64,000 nt of DNA from Escherichia phage FV3, in sequence record NC_019517.1. One strand, written 5' to 3'. The notes under the pieces were generated by a model. It did no database searches and had not been told where the DNA came from. It saw only the letters and a program-made list of their open reading frames with translations. The first letter of the stretch is position 1; each line of letters begins with the position of its first letter. Below are positions 38,748-63,549 of this stretch, piece after piece. The translations under genes were made by a program, and so were the position numbers.

Positions 38748-38835
38748 AATTGAATGAGTGTTTTCAATTGGCACCTGCATATGCCCTGATGTATGCACTG
38801 TGCAACATAGCCACACTATGTAGTGGTGCTGATCG
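38748..38835 (+). promoter_or_regulatory. Regulatory region upstream of endolysin: 9-bp inverted repeat plus TGTGCAACA-palindrome promoter-like element
   Basis: GCCAATTGA-N10-TCAATTGGC (38748-38775), then TGTGCAACA-TA-GCCACACTATGTAGTGGTGC (38798-38828), related to elements at 56558 and 63517. Confidence 0.35.
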
Positions 38836-38868
38836 GGCTCGTTATGAGTGAACTGGAGAGTATGAAAA

Positions 38869-39357
38869 ATGAAACTTGATAAAAATGTTCAACGAAAAGC
38901 TTTCTTGGATATGATCGCATATTCAGAAGGCACAGATAATGGTAGACAACCTACCAATGATCGGGGATACGATGTTATAGTCGGTGGCAAGCTGTTCAGC
39001 GATTACAGCAAGCATCCGGGTGTTTACGTTAAGCTAAATGCTAAACTTACCTCTTCTGCTGCTGGGCGTTACCAGATTTTGGAGAAGTTTGCTAAACACT
39101 ACATGAAACAGTTAGGATTACCAGATTTTGGCCCTGCCAGTCAGGACAAGATTGCGTTGCAACTGATCCGTGAGTGTAAGGCGCTCGATGATATTGATGA
39201 AGGTCGTATTCACCAAGCTATTTATAAATGCCGCAGCCGCTGGGCAAGCTTCCCACCACCGCCAGGGGCTGGAAAGCTGTACAATCAGCGAGCAGAAAGT
39301 ATAGACAAGATGCTGGATATCTTTAAGAAGTCAGGTGGAGTTGTTACGGATGAGTAA
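38869..39357 (+). CDS. Endolysin, lambda R-like lytic transglycosylase
   Basis: 162-aa ORF closely resembling phage lambda R from recall (QRKAFLDM.A.SEGTDNGRQ.T...GYDVIVGG.LF.DYS.HP, GRYQ.L, catalytic Glu in SEGT). Confidence 0.8.
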   Translation: MKLDKNVQRKAFLDMIAYSEGTDNGRQPTNDRGYDVIVGGKLFSDYSKHPGVYVKLNAKLTSSAAGRYQILEKFAKHYMKQLGLPDFGPASQDKIALQLIRECKALDDIDEGRIHQAIYKCRSRWASFPPPPGAGKLYNQRAESIDKMLDIFKKSGGVVTDE

Positions 39358-40033
39358 CGTGATTGACTGGTGGAGTGTCTTTAGATACGACACAGGCACT
39401 GGAAGGTTGTTTTGGAAGGACCCGCCAAAAAACAAACCTCAACTAGTGGGAAAGGAGGCTGGATGTACTAACATGGACGGGTACAGGGATATAGTCTATC
39501 GTGGCGTGCATTACTACAGGCATAGATTGGTGTGGGAGATGCATTATGGACCAATCCCAGAAGGGTATGAAGTTGATCACATAAAGCCACTTTTCTATTC
39601 CGATGGTGTTGCTGATGATAGGGTAGAAAACCTACAACTGTTAACACCAGAAGAAAACGCAAAAAAGGCGGCAGATGACGGATGCCTGGCACGTAAGATA
39701 CCTAAATCCAATACTGGACACTTGGGTGTATATTTTCATGCTAGGACTGGAAGGTATGCTGCTTTTGGTAAGGTAGGTCATTACTATAAGAAAGACCTAG
39801 GGGAGTACGATACCTTAGAAGAGGCCATTGCTGCTCAAAAGTCTTTTGAAAGTGGCACGTTTGTCAGGGAATATCGTGGACATCCTTTAGGGAGGGATAA
39901 ATCTAGAGGTGTCAGATTTGAAGCAGATAGAGGCAAATGGAAAGTAACTTTCAGAGGAAAAACGTTAGGTAGGTTTGACACCAAAGAGTCTGCTGAAGCG
40001 TGTTACGCAAAGGCTCTTGCTGAAAGATTGTAA
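39350..40033 (+). CDS. HNH endonuclease with AP2-like DNA-binding domains
   Basis: HNH motif (YEVDHIKP...DDRVENLQLLTPEENAKKA) followed by two AP2-type repeats (GVYFHARTGRYAAFGK..., RGVRFEADRGKWKVTFRGKTLGRFDTKESAEACY). Likely start ATG 39350, overlapping the endolysin stop (ATGAGTAA). Confidence 0.7.
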   Translation: MSNVIDWWSVFRYDTGTGRLFWKDPPKNKPQLVGKEAGCTNMDGYRDIVYRGVHYYRHRLVWEMHYGPIPEGYEVDHIKPLFYSDGVADDRVENLQLLTPEENAKKAADDGCLARKIPKSNTGHLGVYFHARTGRYAAFGKVGHYYKKDLGEYDTLEEAIAAQKSFESGTFVREYRGHPLGRDKSRGVRFEADRGKWKVTFRGKTLGRFDTKESAEACYAKALAERL

Positions 40034-40101
40034 CAGTATCATTGACATAACCACACGGACGTGGTATTGTTACCTCATAGAATGTTCAGGAGGATTTAAC
40101 T

Positions 40102-40308
40102 ATGAAAGATTTTCTGTTGGCAATTTTGTTCATGGCTGCATGCCTTGCCTGTGGTGTCGTGTTTGCAGGTGAGACAGCGTACCTTGTAGATGTATATCGG
40201 GACAATGGTAAACGTATTTGCATTTATGAGACAAGCCAAGGTGAGCTATATGAGCTTGTGAAGCAAGGTGAGGCAGGTTCATGCCCTCGCACCCATTTCT
40301 TTGAATGA
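40102..40308 (+). CDS. Small putative lipoprotein (68 aa)
   Basis: N-terminal signal with lipobox-like LACG; short mature domain with two further Cys. Confidence 0.4.
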   Translation: MKDFLLAILFMAACLACGVVFAGETAYLVDVYRDNGKRICIYETSQGELYELVKQGEAGSCPRTHFFE

Positions 40309-40317
40309 GGAGGATAC

Positions 40318-40782
40318 GTGGAAGACGGACGTTTAATGAAGTCTGAACGCAGACTTATTGTGCAACTAATCCCAGAAACAGCTTGGTATAATAACCTCAG
40401 AAACGCTGTGAAGAAGAGTGAGTGGGATAAGATCCGTAAGAAGTGCTACAGAGAAGCTAACTACACTTGTGAGGTGTGTGGCGGTAAAGGCAGCAAACAC
40501 CCAGTGGAGTGTCATGAACTTTACACTTTCGAAGATGGGGTGATCCGGCTTGTCGGACTGATAGCTCTGTGTCCAGATTGTCACACATCGGTGCATCCTG
40601 GGTTAGCAAATATCCGTGGGAAGTATGCTCAGGCAGTTAATCAGTTGGCTAAGGTGAATAAGATCACCAAGGGTATGGCGGAGGCGTATTACCGAGACTG
40701 CTTTGCAGAGTGGCGTGAGCTTAGTAAAGTTCCAGAATGGAGAACTGACTTTTCGTGGATAGAGGGTTACCTTGATGGCTAA
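40318..40782 (+). CDS. Cys/His-rich zinc-binding protein, possible HNH-type nuclease
   Basis: CEVCGG...ECHELY...LCPDCHTSVH arrangement compatible with an HNH-like zinc finger. Confidence 0.35.
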   Translation: MEDGRLMKSERRLIVQLIPETAWYNNLRNAVKKSEWDKIRKKCYREANYTCEVCGGKGSKHPVECHELYTFEDGVIRLVGLIALCPDCHTSVHPGLANIRGKYAQAVNQLAKVNKITKGMAEAYYRDCFAEWRELSKVPEWRTDFSWIEGYLDG

Positions 40783-61890: not shown

Positions 61891-62414
61891 CAGGTATGCT
61901 GCTAGTTGATTGGAAAGATTTTTATGGCGATAAAGACCCGAAAGCCTTTATATATAAACCTTGGAGATACTCAGAGAGTCAAATTGCTGCAATAAACCTT
62001 ACAGCAAAGCGCCGAAAAATTATCGAAAGTAAATACAGGTACGCTCAGCTAGTGGCTGGTGTTTCTCCACAGGTAGAGAGTTTTGTGCTTAAACTGTACG
62101 AAAAGTTTATGAGTTACGATCTGTCATTCGTGAAGGTGGGTGAGGATTTATCCCCTGGTAACAACGTAACACGTTGGAAAGTTTCATGCGACAAAAAACT
62201 TCCGGTAAGTATTGAGGTGTGTCGATACTGGGGGTATCATGAGTGTGGCTTTTATGACTACCATGATGTAGAAATAAAGCCACGCAATCATCTAAGCGAC
62301 CCAGAAAAAGATTACTTGAAGCATGTGATTCTTTCCATGTTTGGAGGGTATATCACAGAGAAAAATAGCGAAGACAGAATATCCTTTCTTAACAGTTTGA
62401 ACCGGGAGATGTAG
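61887..62414 (+). CDS. Hypothetical protein (175 aa)
   Basis: ORF coupled to neighbours. Confidence 0.3.
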   Translation: MTGMLLVDWKDFYGDKDPKAFIYKPWRYSESQIAAINLTAKRRKIIESKYRYAQLVAGVSPQVESFVLKLYEKFMSYDLSFVKVGEDLSPGNNVTRWKVSCDKKLPVSIEVCRYWGYHECGFYDYHDVEIKPRNHLSDPEKDYLKHVILSMFGGYITEKNSEDRISFLNSLNREM

Positions 62415-62415
62415 T

Positions 62416-62652
62416 ATGACTATAGACACTGTGCTGGTTTGGTATTGCGCATTGACCTTTCTGACAATGGTTGTTTTAGCAACTCTTTGCATCATATCTT
62501 GTAGAAAAATTAAGTTTGACGACTTTATAACTATAATCACTGCCGCACCTTTTTGGCCTGTTGTTCTCTTCATTGCGGTTATGTGCTTGGTGGATCACTG
62601 TAAAACCGTCAGGAAAATGAAGGAGGCAGATAAGAATGGTAACAGTGACTGA
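62416..62652 (+). CDS. Small membrane protein (78 aa, two predicted transmembrane helices)
   Basis: Two hydrophobic stretches (VLVWYCALTFLTMVVLATLCIIS; ITAAPFWPVVLFIAVMCLV). Confidence 0.35.
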   Translation: MTIDTVLVWYCALTFLTMVVLATLCIISCRKIKFDDFITIITAAPFWPVVLFIAVMCLVDHCKTVRKMKEADKNGNSD

Positions 62653-62854
62653 AACTGTTTATACTGTTCTTAGGGAGATTGCATTCTATACAGACCTTAG
62701 TTCAGTATCTTCATGGGAAAAGAGTGTGTATTTAAAATGGTGCGTGAAATTAGAGGGGACCTTCTAATGTTTCAAGCCATGTTTATTGAAATGCTCTCCG
62801 GAGTATTACTGCTGGTAGCCATTTTGGGTGGTGCGGCGCTAATGTATAATTATC

Positions 62855-63058
62855 TTGAAAAAGGGGACAGTAATGACAAAAAATAAATCCTTAGAACAGG
62901 CTGAAAACCTTCTCCACGAGCTGGTAAAGGAGTGGAAAGTTGAATACTCAGATTTTAATGCAAGAGAGGGGGAAGATTATTGGCCTACGGAGCGCTCAGA
63001 GGGAGAGTGGTATCAAGATTTCATAGAATGGTTATATCAGACGTGCGATGAGGGGTGA
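62855..63058 (+). CDS. Hypothetical protein (67 aa)
   Basis: Short acidic ORF; coupled to the next gene. Confidence 0.25.
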   Translation: MKKGTVMTKNKSLEQAENLLHELVKEWKVEYSDFNAREGEDYWPTERSEGEWYQDFIEWLYQTCDEG

Positions 63059-63516
63059 CGATGTTTGTTAAATATGTAAAAACGTGCCTCAACAACCTTG
63101 GTAGAGAGCATTGGTACACCTTGCTTGAAAAAGGAGAAATTTTAACAAAATCTGGAAAGATAACTCTGATACCTTTGGATGATAAAGACCCGTCACTACT
63201 TGTCATAGATGATTACGTTACAGGTGTGTCGTACGAGGTCTCTGTGGAGAGGTTAATACGCAGATCTGGAGGGCCTTATGACCGAAGAGAGTATGTTTTC
63301 GATTCTGTTACAGAGAAGGAGGATCCGTCTCTAATGTTTAGGATGGTAATCAGGGATATGAAATCATCTATAAATAGGATTGTAAAGGACATTAAGGAGC
63401 CTTTTAGGGTAAAAGTTAAGAAGTTTTTTGATTCTAAGATTAACATACTCGCCGTTGTGCTAGGCGTAATTCAACTTCTGTTAATTTTGCACTATCTTGA
63501 ACTGTTGTTCAAGTAG
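63055..63516 (+). CDS. Hypothetical protein with C-terminal membrane anchor (153 aa)
   Basis: Hydrophobic C-terminus (ILAVVLGVIQLLLILHYL). Confidence 0.3.
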   Translation: MTMFVKYVKTCLNNLGREHWYTLLEKGEILTKSGKITLIPLDDKDPSLLVIDDYVTGVSYEVSVERLIRRSGGPYDRREYVFDSVTEKEDPSLMFRMVIRDMKSSINRIVKDIKEPFRVKVKKFFDSKINILAVVLGVIQLLLILHYLELLFK

Positions 63517-63549
63517 TGTGCAACAAGGCACAAAGGATGTGCCATGATT
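63517..63549 (+). promoter_or_regulatory. Promoter-like element with palindromic operator (third copy of shared motif)
   Basis: TGTGCAACA-AG-GGCACA-AAGGA-TGTGCC-ATGATT, same architecture as 56558-56587 and 38798-38828; upstream of ORF 63577. Confidence 0.45.

What the first reader, a model, noticed from the sequence alone, without database searches (positions are those of the whole stretch)
38748..63549. Shared palindrome embedded in three plus-strand promoter regions (candidate phage regulon)
Three intergenic regions carry the same architecture: a -35-like hexamer, then an interrupted palindrome of CACA/TGTG type (GCCACA-AGGA-TGTGGC at 56566-56581; GGCACA-AAGGA-TGTGCC at 63528-63543; a related CACTA-TG-TAGTG element at 38813-38824), then a -10-like hexamer. 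Two of them also share the upstream 9-mer TGTGCAACA. The sites precede the endolysin gene, the small Cys-rich ORF/nrdG pair and a membrane-protein ORF, suggesting a common regulator, possibly a middle or late timing switch.
Basis: seen in the sequence. Interest (0 to 1): 0.6.

Follow-up and report, generated by a model that had tools for sequence, protein, structure and literature searches.

The report
Shared GGA-loop hairpin inside phage promoters
Three gaps between genes in this rV5-like E. coli phage carry the same small, strictly conserved hairpin nested in a promoter-like sequence.

Summary
The window is a Vequintavirus (rV5/FV3/FFH2-like coliphage). Two of the three reported sites are real and related: GCCACA-AGGA-TGTGGC (56567-56582) and GGCACA-AAGGA-TGTGCC (63527-63543). 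The endolysin site (38814-38825) is a different palindrome that is not conserved. The shared 9-mer TGTGCAACA is deleted or variable in relatives.

The true third member was missed: ACCAC-ACGGAC-GTGGT at 40050-40065, inside the published rV5 promoter P090.

The core CACA-N1-2-GGA-N-GTG occurs at exactly these three places in every Vequintavirus locus examined. It is about 9-fold enriched in sense-strand intergenic DNA of a complete relative.

In all three copies the last hairpin base is the first base of a -10-like hexamer, and the 3' arm supplies the extended -10 TG. Only two copies have a -35 (TTGACA). At site 3 the hairpin is invariant while the hexamers drift.

Stem differences are compensatory or G-U wobbles. 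Loop differences fall only on the N positions of A-N-GGA-N.

This favours a plus-strand RNA hairpin of the host CsrA-binding type (SELEX consensus RUACARGGAUGU), nested in promoter cassettes like the PeSLs of T4-like phages. It argues against a dimeric DNA operator. The mechanism is untested. Interest is moderate.

The parts
40042..40047 (+). -35 hexamer TTGACA of copy A. This is the published rV5 promoter P090.
   Evidence: The promoter scan gives TTGACA-17-TATTGT with a preceding TG. It is listed as P090 in Kropinski 2013 Table S4. It is invariant in 7 genomes while the upstream flank diverges completely.
40050..40065 (+). Hairpin copy A: ACCAC-ACGGAC-GTGGT, with GGA in the loop.
   Evidence: The RNA fold is -6.4 kcal/mol, z -2.5. 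A 45-nt query spanning it matches 117 Vequintavirus records. The ECP2309 variant is ACCACA-TGGA-TGTGGT.
40065..40070 (+). -10 hexamer TATTGT of copy A. Its first base is the last base of the hairpin, and the TG at 40062-40063 is the extended -10.
   Evidence: The Gotham record annotates a promoter here.
40102..40308 (+). Gene downstream of copy A: 68 aa with a hydrophobic, lipobox-like N-terminus. It is the first gene after the endolysin/HNH pair.
   Evidence: No Pfam hit.
   Evidence: Invariant in 9 genomes.
56567..56582 (+). Hairpin copy B: GCCACA-AGGA-TGTGGC. Its core ACAAGGAUGU is an exact match to the ACARGGAUGU part of the CsrA SELEX consensus.
   Evidence: The RNA fold is -9.3 kcal/mol, z -3.9. 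The only variants seen are GTCACA (EPFV3) and GCTACA (FFH2), both giving G-U wobbles. A 45-nt query spanning it matches 98 records.
56582..56587 (+). -10 hexamer CATATT of copy B, preceded by TGn at 56579-56581.
   Evidence: The Gotham record annotates a promoter here. It is lost in SophiaRose (CACCCT) and changed to CATACT in phiWec189, where a nuclease gene is inserted.
56618..57204 (+). Genes downstream of copy B: a 38-aa Cys-rich ORF (56618-56734) overlapping nrdG (56731-57204). The Shine-Dalgarno sequence AGGAGG lies at 56606-56611.
63527..63543 (+).
   Evidence: The RNA fold is -9.2 kcal/mol, z -3.5. It is invariant in all 12 sequences read, including the divergent contig L005, while the flanks vary. 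A 45-nt query spanning it matches 114 records.
63543..63548 (+). -10-like hexamer CATGAT of copy C, preceded by TGn. There is no convincing -35 (GCAACA, 3 of 6).
   Evidence: Read. It is not listed by the promoter scan. Relatives have CATAAT, CATAGT or CATAAC, and the -35 region varies at 5 of 6 columns.
63577..63924 (+). Gene downstream of copy C: 115 aa with an N-terminal membrane anchor.
   Evidence: No Pfam hit.
38799..38825 (+). Rejected as a member of the family.
   Evidence: The 9-mer region is deleted in four relatives. The palindrome and the CCAC/GTGG stem are broken by uncompensated changes. There is no GGA.

Best explanation
**What it is.** The genus Vequintavirus carries three paralogous copies of a 16-17-nt hairpin with the core ACA-N1-2-GGA-N-GU. 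Each copy starts 11-17 nt after the stop codon of the upstream gene and ends 33-36 nt before the next start codon. Each is fused in a fixed register to a sigma-70 extended -10 element: the last hairpin base is -10 position 1, and the 3' arm TGTG(G/C) supplies the TRTGn motif. Two copies also have a perfect -35 (TTGACA), so the hairpin fills the promoter spacer.

**How I think it works (inferred).** The hairpin acts in plus-strand RNA, not as a duplex DNA operator. Transcripts reading through from the upstream gene (endolysin or HNH, nrdD, or the 153-aa ORF) fold it and display A-N-GGA-N on a short stem. That is the high-affinity recognition motif of the host regulator CsrA; a phage RNA-binding protein with similar taste is also possible. 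Binding would change translation or stability of the downstream cistron on the long RNA. Transcripts that start at the embedded promoter begin about 7 nt past the -10, lack the hairpin, and escape this control.

**Shown:** sequence, copy number, register, conservation, covariation and enrichment.

**Inferred:** that the RNA form is the active one, that CsrA is the ligand, and the direction of the effect.
For: 1. **Same core at three sites only.** There are 4 window hits against 0.27 expected. Exactly these three sites match in each of five ~41-kb Vequintavirus loci that span them; FFH2 lacks the exact core at site 2 because of its G-U wobble variant, and smaller loci show the sites they contain. 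In the complete FFH2 genome, all 3 sense-intergenic matches to ACA-N1-2-GGA-N-GT are these sites. There are 6 matches in the remaining 95% of strand-space, a binomial p of about 0.008, on a pattern chosen post hoc.
2. **Strong conservation.** 45-nt queries spanning copies A, B and C match 117, 98 and 114 Vequintavirus records. At copy C, 0 of 17 hairpin columns vary, against 5 of 6 in the '-35', 3 of 6 in the '-10' and 20 of 56 in the flanks. One relative even loses the -10 T6 (CATAAC).
3. **Base-pairing is what is kept.** 97% of stem cells pair. Two pairs show compensatory swaps between paralogs (G-C to A-U, and C-G to G-C). Both orthologous stem changes are C-to-U, giving G-U on the plus strand. 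Only 4 of 500 shuffles reach the observed covariation score.
4. **Loop changes fall on the N positions.** All loop differences fall on the N positions of A-N-GGA-N: AAGGAU, ACGGAC, AUGGAU and A-AA-GGA-U. ACA, GGA and GU never change.
5. **Match to CsrA requirements.** The invariant parts are exactly those reported as invariant in the CsrA SELEX: consensus RUACARGGAUGU, ACA and GGA 100% conserved, GU in all but one ligand, GGA in a hairpin loop, AC/GU paired (PMC7652899).
6. **Poor fit to a dimeric operator.** Arm spacing is 6, 6 and 7 nt and the conserved centre is asymmetric.
7. **A second GGA nearby.** A Shine-Dalgarno sequence containing GGA lies 33 nt downstream at copies A and B in the window.
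8. **The hairpin can be in RNA.** No terminator is annotated upstream of any copy in relatives, so read-through RNA should contain the hairpin.
Against: - In two copies the hairpin lies between -35 and -10, so RNA made from those promoters lacks it. The model needs read-through transcripts, which are not shown.
- Copy C has no GGA near its Shine-Dalgarno sequence (AGAGGU). The Gotham version of copy A has none either. The classic two-site CsrA repression therefore fits only copy B robustly.
- The stems are 5-6 bp, whereas most SELEX hairpins had 4 bp or fewer.
- Spacers of two ordinary promoters (P093, P107) are just as invariant among these close relatives, so part of the conservation may be short divergence time.
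- The sample of independent substitutions is tiny: two wobbles, two paralog swaps and one loop variant.
- The core pattern was defined after seeing the sites.
- No report of CsrA acting on lytic-phage mRNA was found.
- The element is absent from the homologous 49-kb block of Seunavirus PVP-SE1.
Confidence: 0.35

Rival explanations
1. PeSL-like composite promoter/stem-loop cassettes with no specific ligand. The hairpin attenuates or terminates transcription arriving from the upstream gene, or stabilises that gene's 3' end, and the overlapping sigma-70 promoter restarts transcription. The repeated cassette also acts as a recombination or insertion hot spot. On this view the GGA loop is inherited from a common ancestor rather than selected.
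For: - T4-type phages have promoter-early stem-loops (PeSLs): near-consensus TTGACA-N17-TATAAT promoters plus a stem-loop, beginning at the upstream stop codon. One subclass has the stem-loop between -35 and -10. G-T pairs occur in their stems, and they are linked to indels (PMC2839356, PMC4122927).
- Copies A and B have exactly that layout.
- Indel boundaries abut the element. Homology between genomes with and without the HNH gene resumes 3 nt before the -35 of copy A. A GIY-YIG gene (SophiaRose) and a 333-aa ORF (phiWec189) are inserted immediately 3' of hairpin B.
- Hairpin B plus ATATTGTTGT passes the lenient terminator scan.
Against: - Loop sequence is irrelevant to a terminator, yet GGA and ACA are invariant across paralogs and orthologs, and changes fall only on the N positions.
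- None of the copies has a real U-tract. The ARNold-type terminator annotations in EdH4 and Gotham skip all three.
- There are only three copies, whereas PeSL phages have dozens.
- Promoter windows in FFH2 are not enriched for stem-loops: 37% have a stem of 5 bp or more, against 34% of random windows.
- Copy C lacks a -35.
Confidence: 0.25
2. The interrupted palindrome is a double-stranded DNA operator in the promoter spacer, bound by one phage or host transcription factor that switches the three promoters together.
For: - The dyad sits in the classic operator position between -35 and -10 in copies A and B.
- The inner arms CACA/TGTG are invariant.
- The phage encodes at least one small helix-turn-helix protein, at 32554-32904 on the minus strand, with borderline Pfam HTH_36/DUF6945 hits.
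- The same element before three genes suggests co-regulation.
Against: - Arm spacing differs by 1 bp between copies (6, 6 and 7 nt).
- The conserved centre, GGA, is asymmetric.
- One-arm C-to-T changes break the DNA dyad but keep RNA pairing.
- The outer arm positions swap C-G for G-C between copies. That preserves pairing but not base identity.
- Copy C has no -35, and its -10 drifts while the hairpin is frozen.
- The sequence does not fit CRP, FNR or NrdR boxes (comparison by reading against consensus sequences recalled from memory).
Confidence: 0.2
3. Ordinary extended -10 promoters related by duplication. On this view the 5' arm and loop have no function of their own, and their constancy reflects the recent common ancestry of the sequenced genomes.
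For: - The 3' arm is fully explained by the TRTGn extended -10 motif.
- P090 and site 2 are called as promoters by others.
- Some plain promoters (P093, P107) have equally invariant spacers in this set of genomes.
Against: - At copy C the hairpin is the only invariant part, while the promoter hexamers vary.
- Other promoters vary at 6-10 spacer columns in the same genomes (P118, P121, 60928).
- Paralogs that differ throughout their flanks keep pairing through compensatory changes.
Confidence: 0.15

Closest known systems
CsrA/RsmA high-affinity RNA binding sites (SELEX consensus RUACARGGAUGU; the glgC leader hairpin; CsrB repeats CAGGAUG)
   Same: GGA lies in the loop of a short hairpin, with ACA on the 5' side and GU on the 3' side and AC/GU paired. 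Copy B matches 10 of 12 consensus positions, with ACAAGGAUGU exact. The hairpins sit in an intercistronic leader 42-46 nt before a start codon, and at copies A and B a second GGA lies in the Shine-Dalgarno sequence about 33 nt away.
   Different: They are in a lytic phage genome and nested in a promoter spacer, so they are present only in read-through RNA. The stems are longer (5-6 bp). Copy C has a 7-nt loop and no Shine-Dalgarno GGA. Binding has never been tested.
PeSLs (promoter-early stem-loops), the composite promoter/terminator cassettes of T4-type phages (Arbiol 2010; Comeau 2014)
   Same: An intergenic cassette that starts at the upstream stop codon and combines a TTGACA-type sigma-70 promoter with a stem-loop. 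A described subclass has the stem-loop between -35 and -10. G-T pairs are tolerated, the cassette is repeated within one genome, and indel and gene-insertion boundaries lie at the cassette.
   Different: The phage family is different (Vequintavirinae). There are only three copies. The stem is CCACA/TGTGG, not a G-run/C-run. There is no U-tract and no terminator call. The loop sequence is conserved, copy C lacks a -35, and no recombination product has been shown.
Predicted rV5 promoter P090 (Kropinski et al. 2013, Table S4) and the PhagePromoter annotations in phage Gotham
   Same: Copy A is the P090 sequence TTGACATAACCACACGGACGTGGTAT(T/G)T. Copies A and B are annotated as promoters in MT682716.
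   Different: Those annotations treat each as an isolated sigma-70 promoter. The shared hairpin, its third copy at 63527, and its conservation pattern were not noted; the rV5 paper contains no occurrence of 'palindrom'.

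Membership tests
Sigma-70 extended -10 promoter | A -10 hexamer with A at position 2 and T at position 6 | tested here: met
   TATTGT, CATATT and CATGAT. A2 and T6 are kept in relatives except S127 BCL3, whose copy C reads CATAAC.
Sigma-70 extended -10 promoter | TG one base upstream of the -10 hexamer | tested here: met
   All three copies have it: GTGGTATTGT, TGTGGCATATT and TGTGCCATGAT. The TG is part of the 3' arm of the hairpin.
Sigma-70 extended -10 promoter | A -35 hexamer close to TTGACA, 16-18 nt upstream | tested here: inconclusive
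   It is perfect and invariant at copies A and B. At copy C it is only GCAACA (3 of 6) and 5 of 6 columns vary among relatives. Extended -10 promoters can work without a -35.
Sigma-70 extended -10 promoter | A mapped transcription start 6-8 nt after the -10 | not testable with these tools
   No transcript-mapping study of Vequintavirus infection was identified.
CsrA/RsmA binding hairpin | GGA unpaired in the loop of the most stable local hairpin | tested here: met
   The loops are AGGA, AAGGA and ACGGAC.
CsrA/RsmA binding hairpin | ACA upstream and GU downstream of GGA, as in RUACARGGAUGU | tested here: met
   The cores are ACAAGGAUGU, ACAAAGGAUGU and ACACGGACGU (ACAUGGAUGU in ECP2309). ACA, GGA and GU are invariant in all copies and variants.
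CsrA/RsmA binding hairpin | A weak stem, mostly 4 or fewer contiguous pairs | tested here: not met
   The stems have 5-6 pairs, at -6.4 to -9.3 kcal/mol.
CsrA/RsmA binding hairpin | A second GGA site at or near the Shine-Dalgarno sequence or start codon, for bridging by the CsrA dimer | tested here: inconclusive
   Present at copy B in all relatives. Present at copy A in the window but not in Gotham. Absent at copy C.
CsrA/RsmA binding hairpin | The hairpin is present in an mRNA and is bound by CsrA | not testable with these tools
   This needs RNA-seq, CLIP or gel-shift assays. The phage has no CsrA homologue of its own (tblastn best E = 4.4), so the host protein would be the ligand.
PeSL (promoter-early stem-loop) cassette | A strong sigma-70 promoter and a stem-loop in one short intergenic cassette that starts at the upstream stop codon | tested here: met
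   True of copies A and B. The subclass with the stem-loop between -35 and -10 is described.
PeSL (promoter-early stem-loop) cassette | The stem-loop acts as a transcription terminator or attenuator | not testable with these tools
   There is no U-tract. Only copy B passes the lenient scan. Terminator annotations in EdH4 and Gotham do not include these sites.
PeSL (promoter-early stem-loop) cassette | Many copies, concentrated in hyperplastic regions and flanking variable ORFs | tested here: not met
   Only three copies exist in the 139-kb FFH2 genome. Promoter windows show no general excess of stem-loops.
PeSL (promoter-early stem-loop) cassette | Indel or recombination junctions at the cassette | tested here: met
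   The boundary of the HNH-gene indel lies 3 nt before the -35 of copy A. Nuclease-gene insertions start right after hairpin B. Homing-endonuclease activity is an alternative cause.
Intrinsic (Rho-independent) terminator | A GC-rich hairpin followed directly by a U-tract | tested here: not met
   The tails are AUAUUGUUGU, AUGAUUAAAU and AUUGUUACCU. Copies A and C are not listed by the terminator scan.
Palindromic operator of a dimeric DNA-binding regulator | Two symmetric half-sites at a fixed spacing in all copies | tested here: not met
   The spacing between the CCAC/GTGG-type arms is 6, 6 and 7 nt. One-arm substitutions are tolerated, and the conserved centre is asymmetric.
NrdR box (considered because nrdG lies downstream and site 1 reads ACACTATGTAGTG) | A pair of 16-bp palindromes acaCwAtATaTwGtgt overlapping an nrd promoter. 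The consensus was recalled from memory. | tested here: not met
   Site 1 is 2 bp too short, unpaired, upstream of the endolysin and not conserved. Site 2 does not match the consensus.

The most novel reading that the evidence does not exclude
A whole genus of virulent coliphages has wired three genes to the host Csr global post-transcriptional network: a lipoprotein-like gene next to the endolysin, the nrdG activase operon, and a membrane protein gene. It does this by placing SELEX-grade CsrA hairpins inside promoter spacers. The same 30 bp would then encode a promoter in DNA and a CsrA site in RNA, so the choice of promoter (upstream read-through versus internal start) decides whether a transcript is under CsrA control.
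Probability: 0.2. Interest if true: 0.65.

Novelty: new variant of a known kind. Interest (0 to 1): 0.4.

Why it matters
If the hairpins are ligand-binding RNA elements, they would be a compact example of dual coding: a promoter in DNA and a regulatory hairpin in RNA within the same 30 bp.

They would also be a first case of a lytic phage using the host CsrA system to set expression of lysis-adjacent and nucleotide-metabolism genes according to host physiology.

rV5-like phages are widely used in biocontrol and therapy cocktails against E. coli O157 and urinary-tract strains, so their gene-timing logic has practical value.

If the elements are only PeSL-like cassettes, the result extends that concept beyond T4-like phages. 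It would also mark preferred insertion points for homing-endonuclease genes.

Either way, the endolysin is not part of the set, which corrects the proposed regulon.

Tried and rejected
- **Site 1 as a member.** Rejected after alignment with six relatives.
- **The 9-mer TGTGCAACA as a motif.** It is not enriched and not conserved.
- **General dyad symmetry in promoter spacers or promoter windows of FFH2.** No excess found.
- **Loose scan for GGA-loop hairpins.** It is dominated by chance hits: 94 sense against 51 antisense, explained by codon composition.
- **A tiny ORF starting at the ATG inside the hairpin.** It is inconsistent between copies, and copy A has no ATG.
- **An outer helix pairing the -35 with the sequence after the -10 at copy B.** It is not conserved, because relatives read TTGACA where the window has TTGTCA.
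- **A phage-encoded CsrA.** None found.
- **Rfam.** Only tRNAs were found in the window.
- **Positional homologues in other genera.** nrdD and nrdG overlap in PVP-SE1, outra and ZCKP1, so site 2 has no counterpart there. The 49-kb PVP-SE1 block has four core matches, all in coding sequence.
- **More natural variants from metagenome and IMG/VR scans, using an anchor next to site 2.** Almost all hits were chance matches. Only two were true relatives, and no new variants emerged. The NrdG-based locus search found one close relative.
- **CRP, FNR and NrdR boxes.** Rejected by reading against consensus sequences recalled from memory.
- **MAFFT alignment of the copies with flanks.** It misplaced the 1-nt loop gap, so the alignment was redone on the hairpins alone.

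Full report
**Identity of the window.** A 4-kb stretch (55000-59000) is 92-98% identical to about 120 Vequintavirus genomes, including rV5, FV3 and FFH2. Structural genes and tRNAs lie on the minus strand up to about 33.9 kb. A long plus-strand block of DNA-metabolism and small unknown genes follows. FFH2 (KJ190158) was fetched whole and used as the annotated reference.

**Checking the observation.**
- Site 2 is GCCACA-AGGA-TGTGGC at 56567-56582. It lies inside TTGACA(56558)-18 nt-CATATT with a TG before the -10, 12 nt after the nrdD stop.
- Site 3 is GGCACA-AAGGA-TGTGCC at 63527-63543, 10 nt after the stop of ORF 63055-63516.
- The 9-mer TGTGCAACA occurs exactly twice, at 38799 and 63517. One-mismatch copies are at chance level.
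- Site 1 (CACTA-TG-TAGTG, 38814-38825) exists but is short and unrelated in sequence.
- The promoter scan lists site 2 but neither site 1 nor site 3.

**A missed third member.**
- A list of all perfect hairpins, together with the published promoter table for rV5, pointed to 40042-40070: TTGACA-taa-CCACACGGACGTGG-TATTGT. This is the published promoter P090.
- Its hairpin, ACCAC-ACGGAC-GTGGT (40050-40065), shares the core CACA-N-GGA-N-GTG with sites 2 and 3.
- That core, allowing one or two bases before GGA, hits four places in the window against 0.27 expected, and 0 of 100 shuffles reach four. Three hits are these intergenic plus-strand sites. The fourth is antisense inside the terminase gene.
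- In five ~41-kb Vequintavirus loci that span all three sites, the core occurs at exactly these sites and nowhere else. FFH2 misses site 2 only because of its wobble variant, and smaller loci show the sites they contain.
- In the complete FFH2 genome, ACA-N1-2-GGA-N-GT has 3 sense-intergenic matches in 13.8 kb, which are these sites. It has 3 sense-coding, 0 antisense-intergenic and 3 antisense-coding matches. That is about a 9-fold enrichment (binomial p about 0.008), though the pattern was defined after seeing the sites.

**Anatomy common to the three copies.**
- The last base of each hairpin is the first base of a -10-like hexamer (TATTGT, CATATT, CATGAT).
- The 3' arm, (C/T)GTG(G/C), supplies the TG of an extended -10.
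- Each hairpin starts 11-17 nt after an upstream stop codon and ends 33-36 nt before the next ATG.
- The downstream genes are:
  - a 68-aa protein with a lipoprotein-like N-terminus, the first gene after the endolysin/HNH pair;
  - a 38-aa Cys-rich ORF overlapping nrdG;
  - a 115-aa membrane-anchored protein. None has a Pfam match.
- As isolated RNAs the hairpins fold at -6.4, -9.3 and -9.2 kcal/mol, with z-scores of -2.5 to -3.9.

**Conservation.**
- 45-nt queries find copy A in 117 records, copy B in 98 and copy C in 114, all of them Vequintavirus.
- Alignments with six to eight relatives show the following.

| Copy | -35 | Hairpin | -10 | Flanks |
|---|---|---|---|---|
| A | invariant | invariant | invariant | upstream homology stops 3 nt before the -35, where an HNH gene is present or absent |
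| B | invariant | only two changes, both C-to-T in the 5' arm (GTCACA in EPFV3, GCTACA in FFH2) | invariant | 12 of 56 columns vary |
| C | 5 of 6 columns vary | 0 of 17 columns vary, even in the divergent contig L005 | 3 of 6 columns vary; one phage has CATAAC | 20 of 56 columns vary |

- As a control, spacers of other intergenic promoters vary at 6-10 columns (P118, P121, 60928). P093 and P107 vary at only 1-2 columns.
- A variant of copy A in ECP2309 reads ACCACA-TGGA-TGTGGT. Both changes are at the two N positions of the A-N-GGA-N loop.
- Site 1, by contrast, loses the 9-mer through a 28-nt deletion in four relatives. Uncompensated changes break its palindrome and its CCAC/GTGG stem. It is not a member.

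**Structure test.** On an alignment of the six distinct hairpin sequences:
- 97% of stem cells pair.
- Two pairs show changes on both sides between paralogs (G-C to A-U, and C-G to G-C), and two show G-U wobbles.
- Only 4 of 500 shuffles reach the observed covariation score, and all slid registers collapse.
- The sample is small, but every observed change preserves pairing in plus-strand RNA. The two wobbles would be A-C mismatches in minus-strand RNA and are mismatches in a DNA dyad.

**What it resembles.**
- The invariant letters are ACA, GGA and GU. These are the positions reported as invariant in the SELEX for E. coli CsrA. The consensus is RUACARGGAUGU, with GGA in a hairpin loop and AC/GU paired; NMR of the homologue RsmE shows an ANGGAN loop (PMC7652899).
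- Copy B contains ACAAGGAUGU exactly.
- A Shine-Dalgarno sequence containing GGA lies 33 nt downstream at copies A and B, which matches the two-site bridging seen in glgC. Copy C has no such GGA, and the Gotham version of copy A lacks it too.
- The phage has no CsrA of its own. No paper linking CsrA to lytic-phage mRNAs was found.
- At the level of architecture, the closest described thing is the PeSL of T4-type phages. PeSLs are sigma-70 promoter plus stem-loop cassettes that start at the upstream stop codon. One subclass has the stem-loop between -35 and -10. G-T pairs occur in their stems, and they are tied to gene-cassette indels.
- Fitting that picture, SophiaRose carries a GIY-YIG gene and phiWec189 a 333-aa ORF inserted immediately after hairpin B. 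Both keep the -35 and the hairpin. In SophiaRose the -10 is destroyed. In both, the nrdG-side leader no longer has the hairpin.
- Against full membership: this phage has only three copies, no U-tracts, no terminator calls at these sites in annotated relatives, and no general excess of promoter-associated stem-loops.

**Interpretation.**
- That the hairpin itself is under selection is reasonably well supported: it is frozen at copy C while the hexamers drift, paralogs keep pairing, and only wobble changes are seen.
- Its conserved asymmetric loop and the unequal arm spacing (6, 6 and 7 nt) argue against a dimeric duplex-DNA operator. They favour recognition of a folded plus-strand RNA.
- I therefore rank first an RNA hairpin of the CsrA-binding type, present on read-through transcripts and bypassed by transcripts from the embedded promoter (confidence 0.35).
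- Main weaknesses: the hairpin is absent from RNA made at the promoters of copies A and B, read-through is unproven, a second GGA is lacking at copy C, the stems are stronger than typical CsrA ligands, and independent substitutions are few.

**Distribution.** The element is specific to the genus. In Seunavirus, Justusliebigvirus and Phapecoctavirus, nrdD and nrdG overlap with no spacer. The homologous 49-kb block of PVP-SE1 has no intergenic copy.

**Verdict.**
- The element is a new variant of known kinds, namely promoter/stem-loop cassettes and GGA-loop protein-binding hairpins.
- It is of moderate interest. It would be clearly more interesting if CsrA binding were demonstrated.

Noticed in passing
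window 32395-32480, inside the ORF-free stretch 31894-32553: There are four tandem copies, spaced 21-22 nt apart, of a 17-bp palindrome TGTCCG-N5-CGGACA. They lie next to the 3' end of a small helix-turn-helix gene (32554-32904, minus strand; borderline Pfam HTH_36/DUF6945). The arrangement looks like an operator or iteron array. It is conserved in 117 Vequintavirus records, and a few of them annotate it only as 'repeat_region'.
   Followed up: partly
L021 (SophiaRose) 1808-1870 and L022 (phiWec189) 1808-1870; window 39335-40033: Free-standing nuclease genes sit directly against the hairpin-promoter cassettes. A GIY-YIG gene and a 333-aa ORF are inserted right after hairpin B. An HNH/AP2 gene ends 8 nt before the -35 of copy A in the window but is absent in FFH2. 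In phiWec189 the inserted ORF is annotated as starting at the ATG inside the hairpin, which is probably a wrong start.
   Followed up: partly
window 53636-56554: nrdD is split into 53636-54499 and 55271-56554 by a segment carrying an HNH gene (54721-55254). EmilHeitz annotates the equivalent gene as a joined CDS. Rfam at gathering threshold reports no group I intron here.
   Followed up: no
window 38745-38772: A perfect 10-bp-stem hairpin, GCCAATTGAA-N8-TTCAATTGGC, lies 28 nt after the DNA ligase stop codon and has no U-tract. Single mismatches appear in FFH2 and in EdH4/EmilHeitz.
   Followed up: no
window 40102-40308: The 68-aa product of the gene after the endolysin/HNH pair starts MKDFLLAILFMAACLACG, which looks like a signal peptide with a lipobox. 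It could be a spanin-type lysis lipoprotein. The rV5 paper named no spanin and placed the putative holin elsewhere (gp129).
   Followed up: no
FFH2 genome 4389-4406, minus strand (L002), outside the window: This is a fourth intergenic GGA-loop hairpin on the sense strand: GGCGGCA-AGGA-TGCTGCT, with the core CAAGGAUG. It lies just upstream of a Shine-Dalgarno sequence and has no promoter around it.
   Followed up: no
FFH2 early region about 108-116 kb, minus strand (L001/L004), outside the window: Several strong TTGACA promoters are followed in the leader by similar G/C-clamped hairpins, such as GGGAAAACTTCCC and GGCGGGAAAACTTCCCGCC. This may be a separate family of 5'-UTR stem-loops.
   Followed up: no
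L001 (FFH2) 33406-33484 and 22209-22272: Other promoters carry their own, different dyads. CACACAGG-N16-CCTGTGTG brackets the -35 of rV5 P150. The palindrome ACAAAGCTTTGT overlaps the -35 of P118 in FFH2, but it is not palindromic in the window.
   Followed up: partly
window 42661-42676: GCCACA-GGTA-TGTGGC has the same arms as hairpin B but no GGA. It lies inside a coding region (ORF 42562-42888) and is probably coincidental.
   Followed up: no
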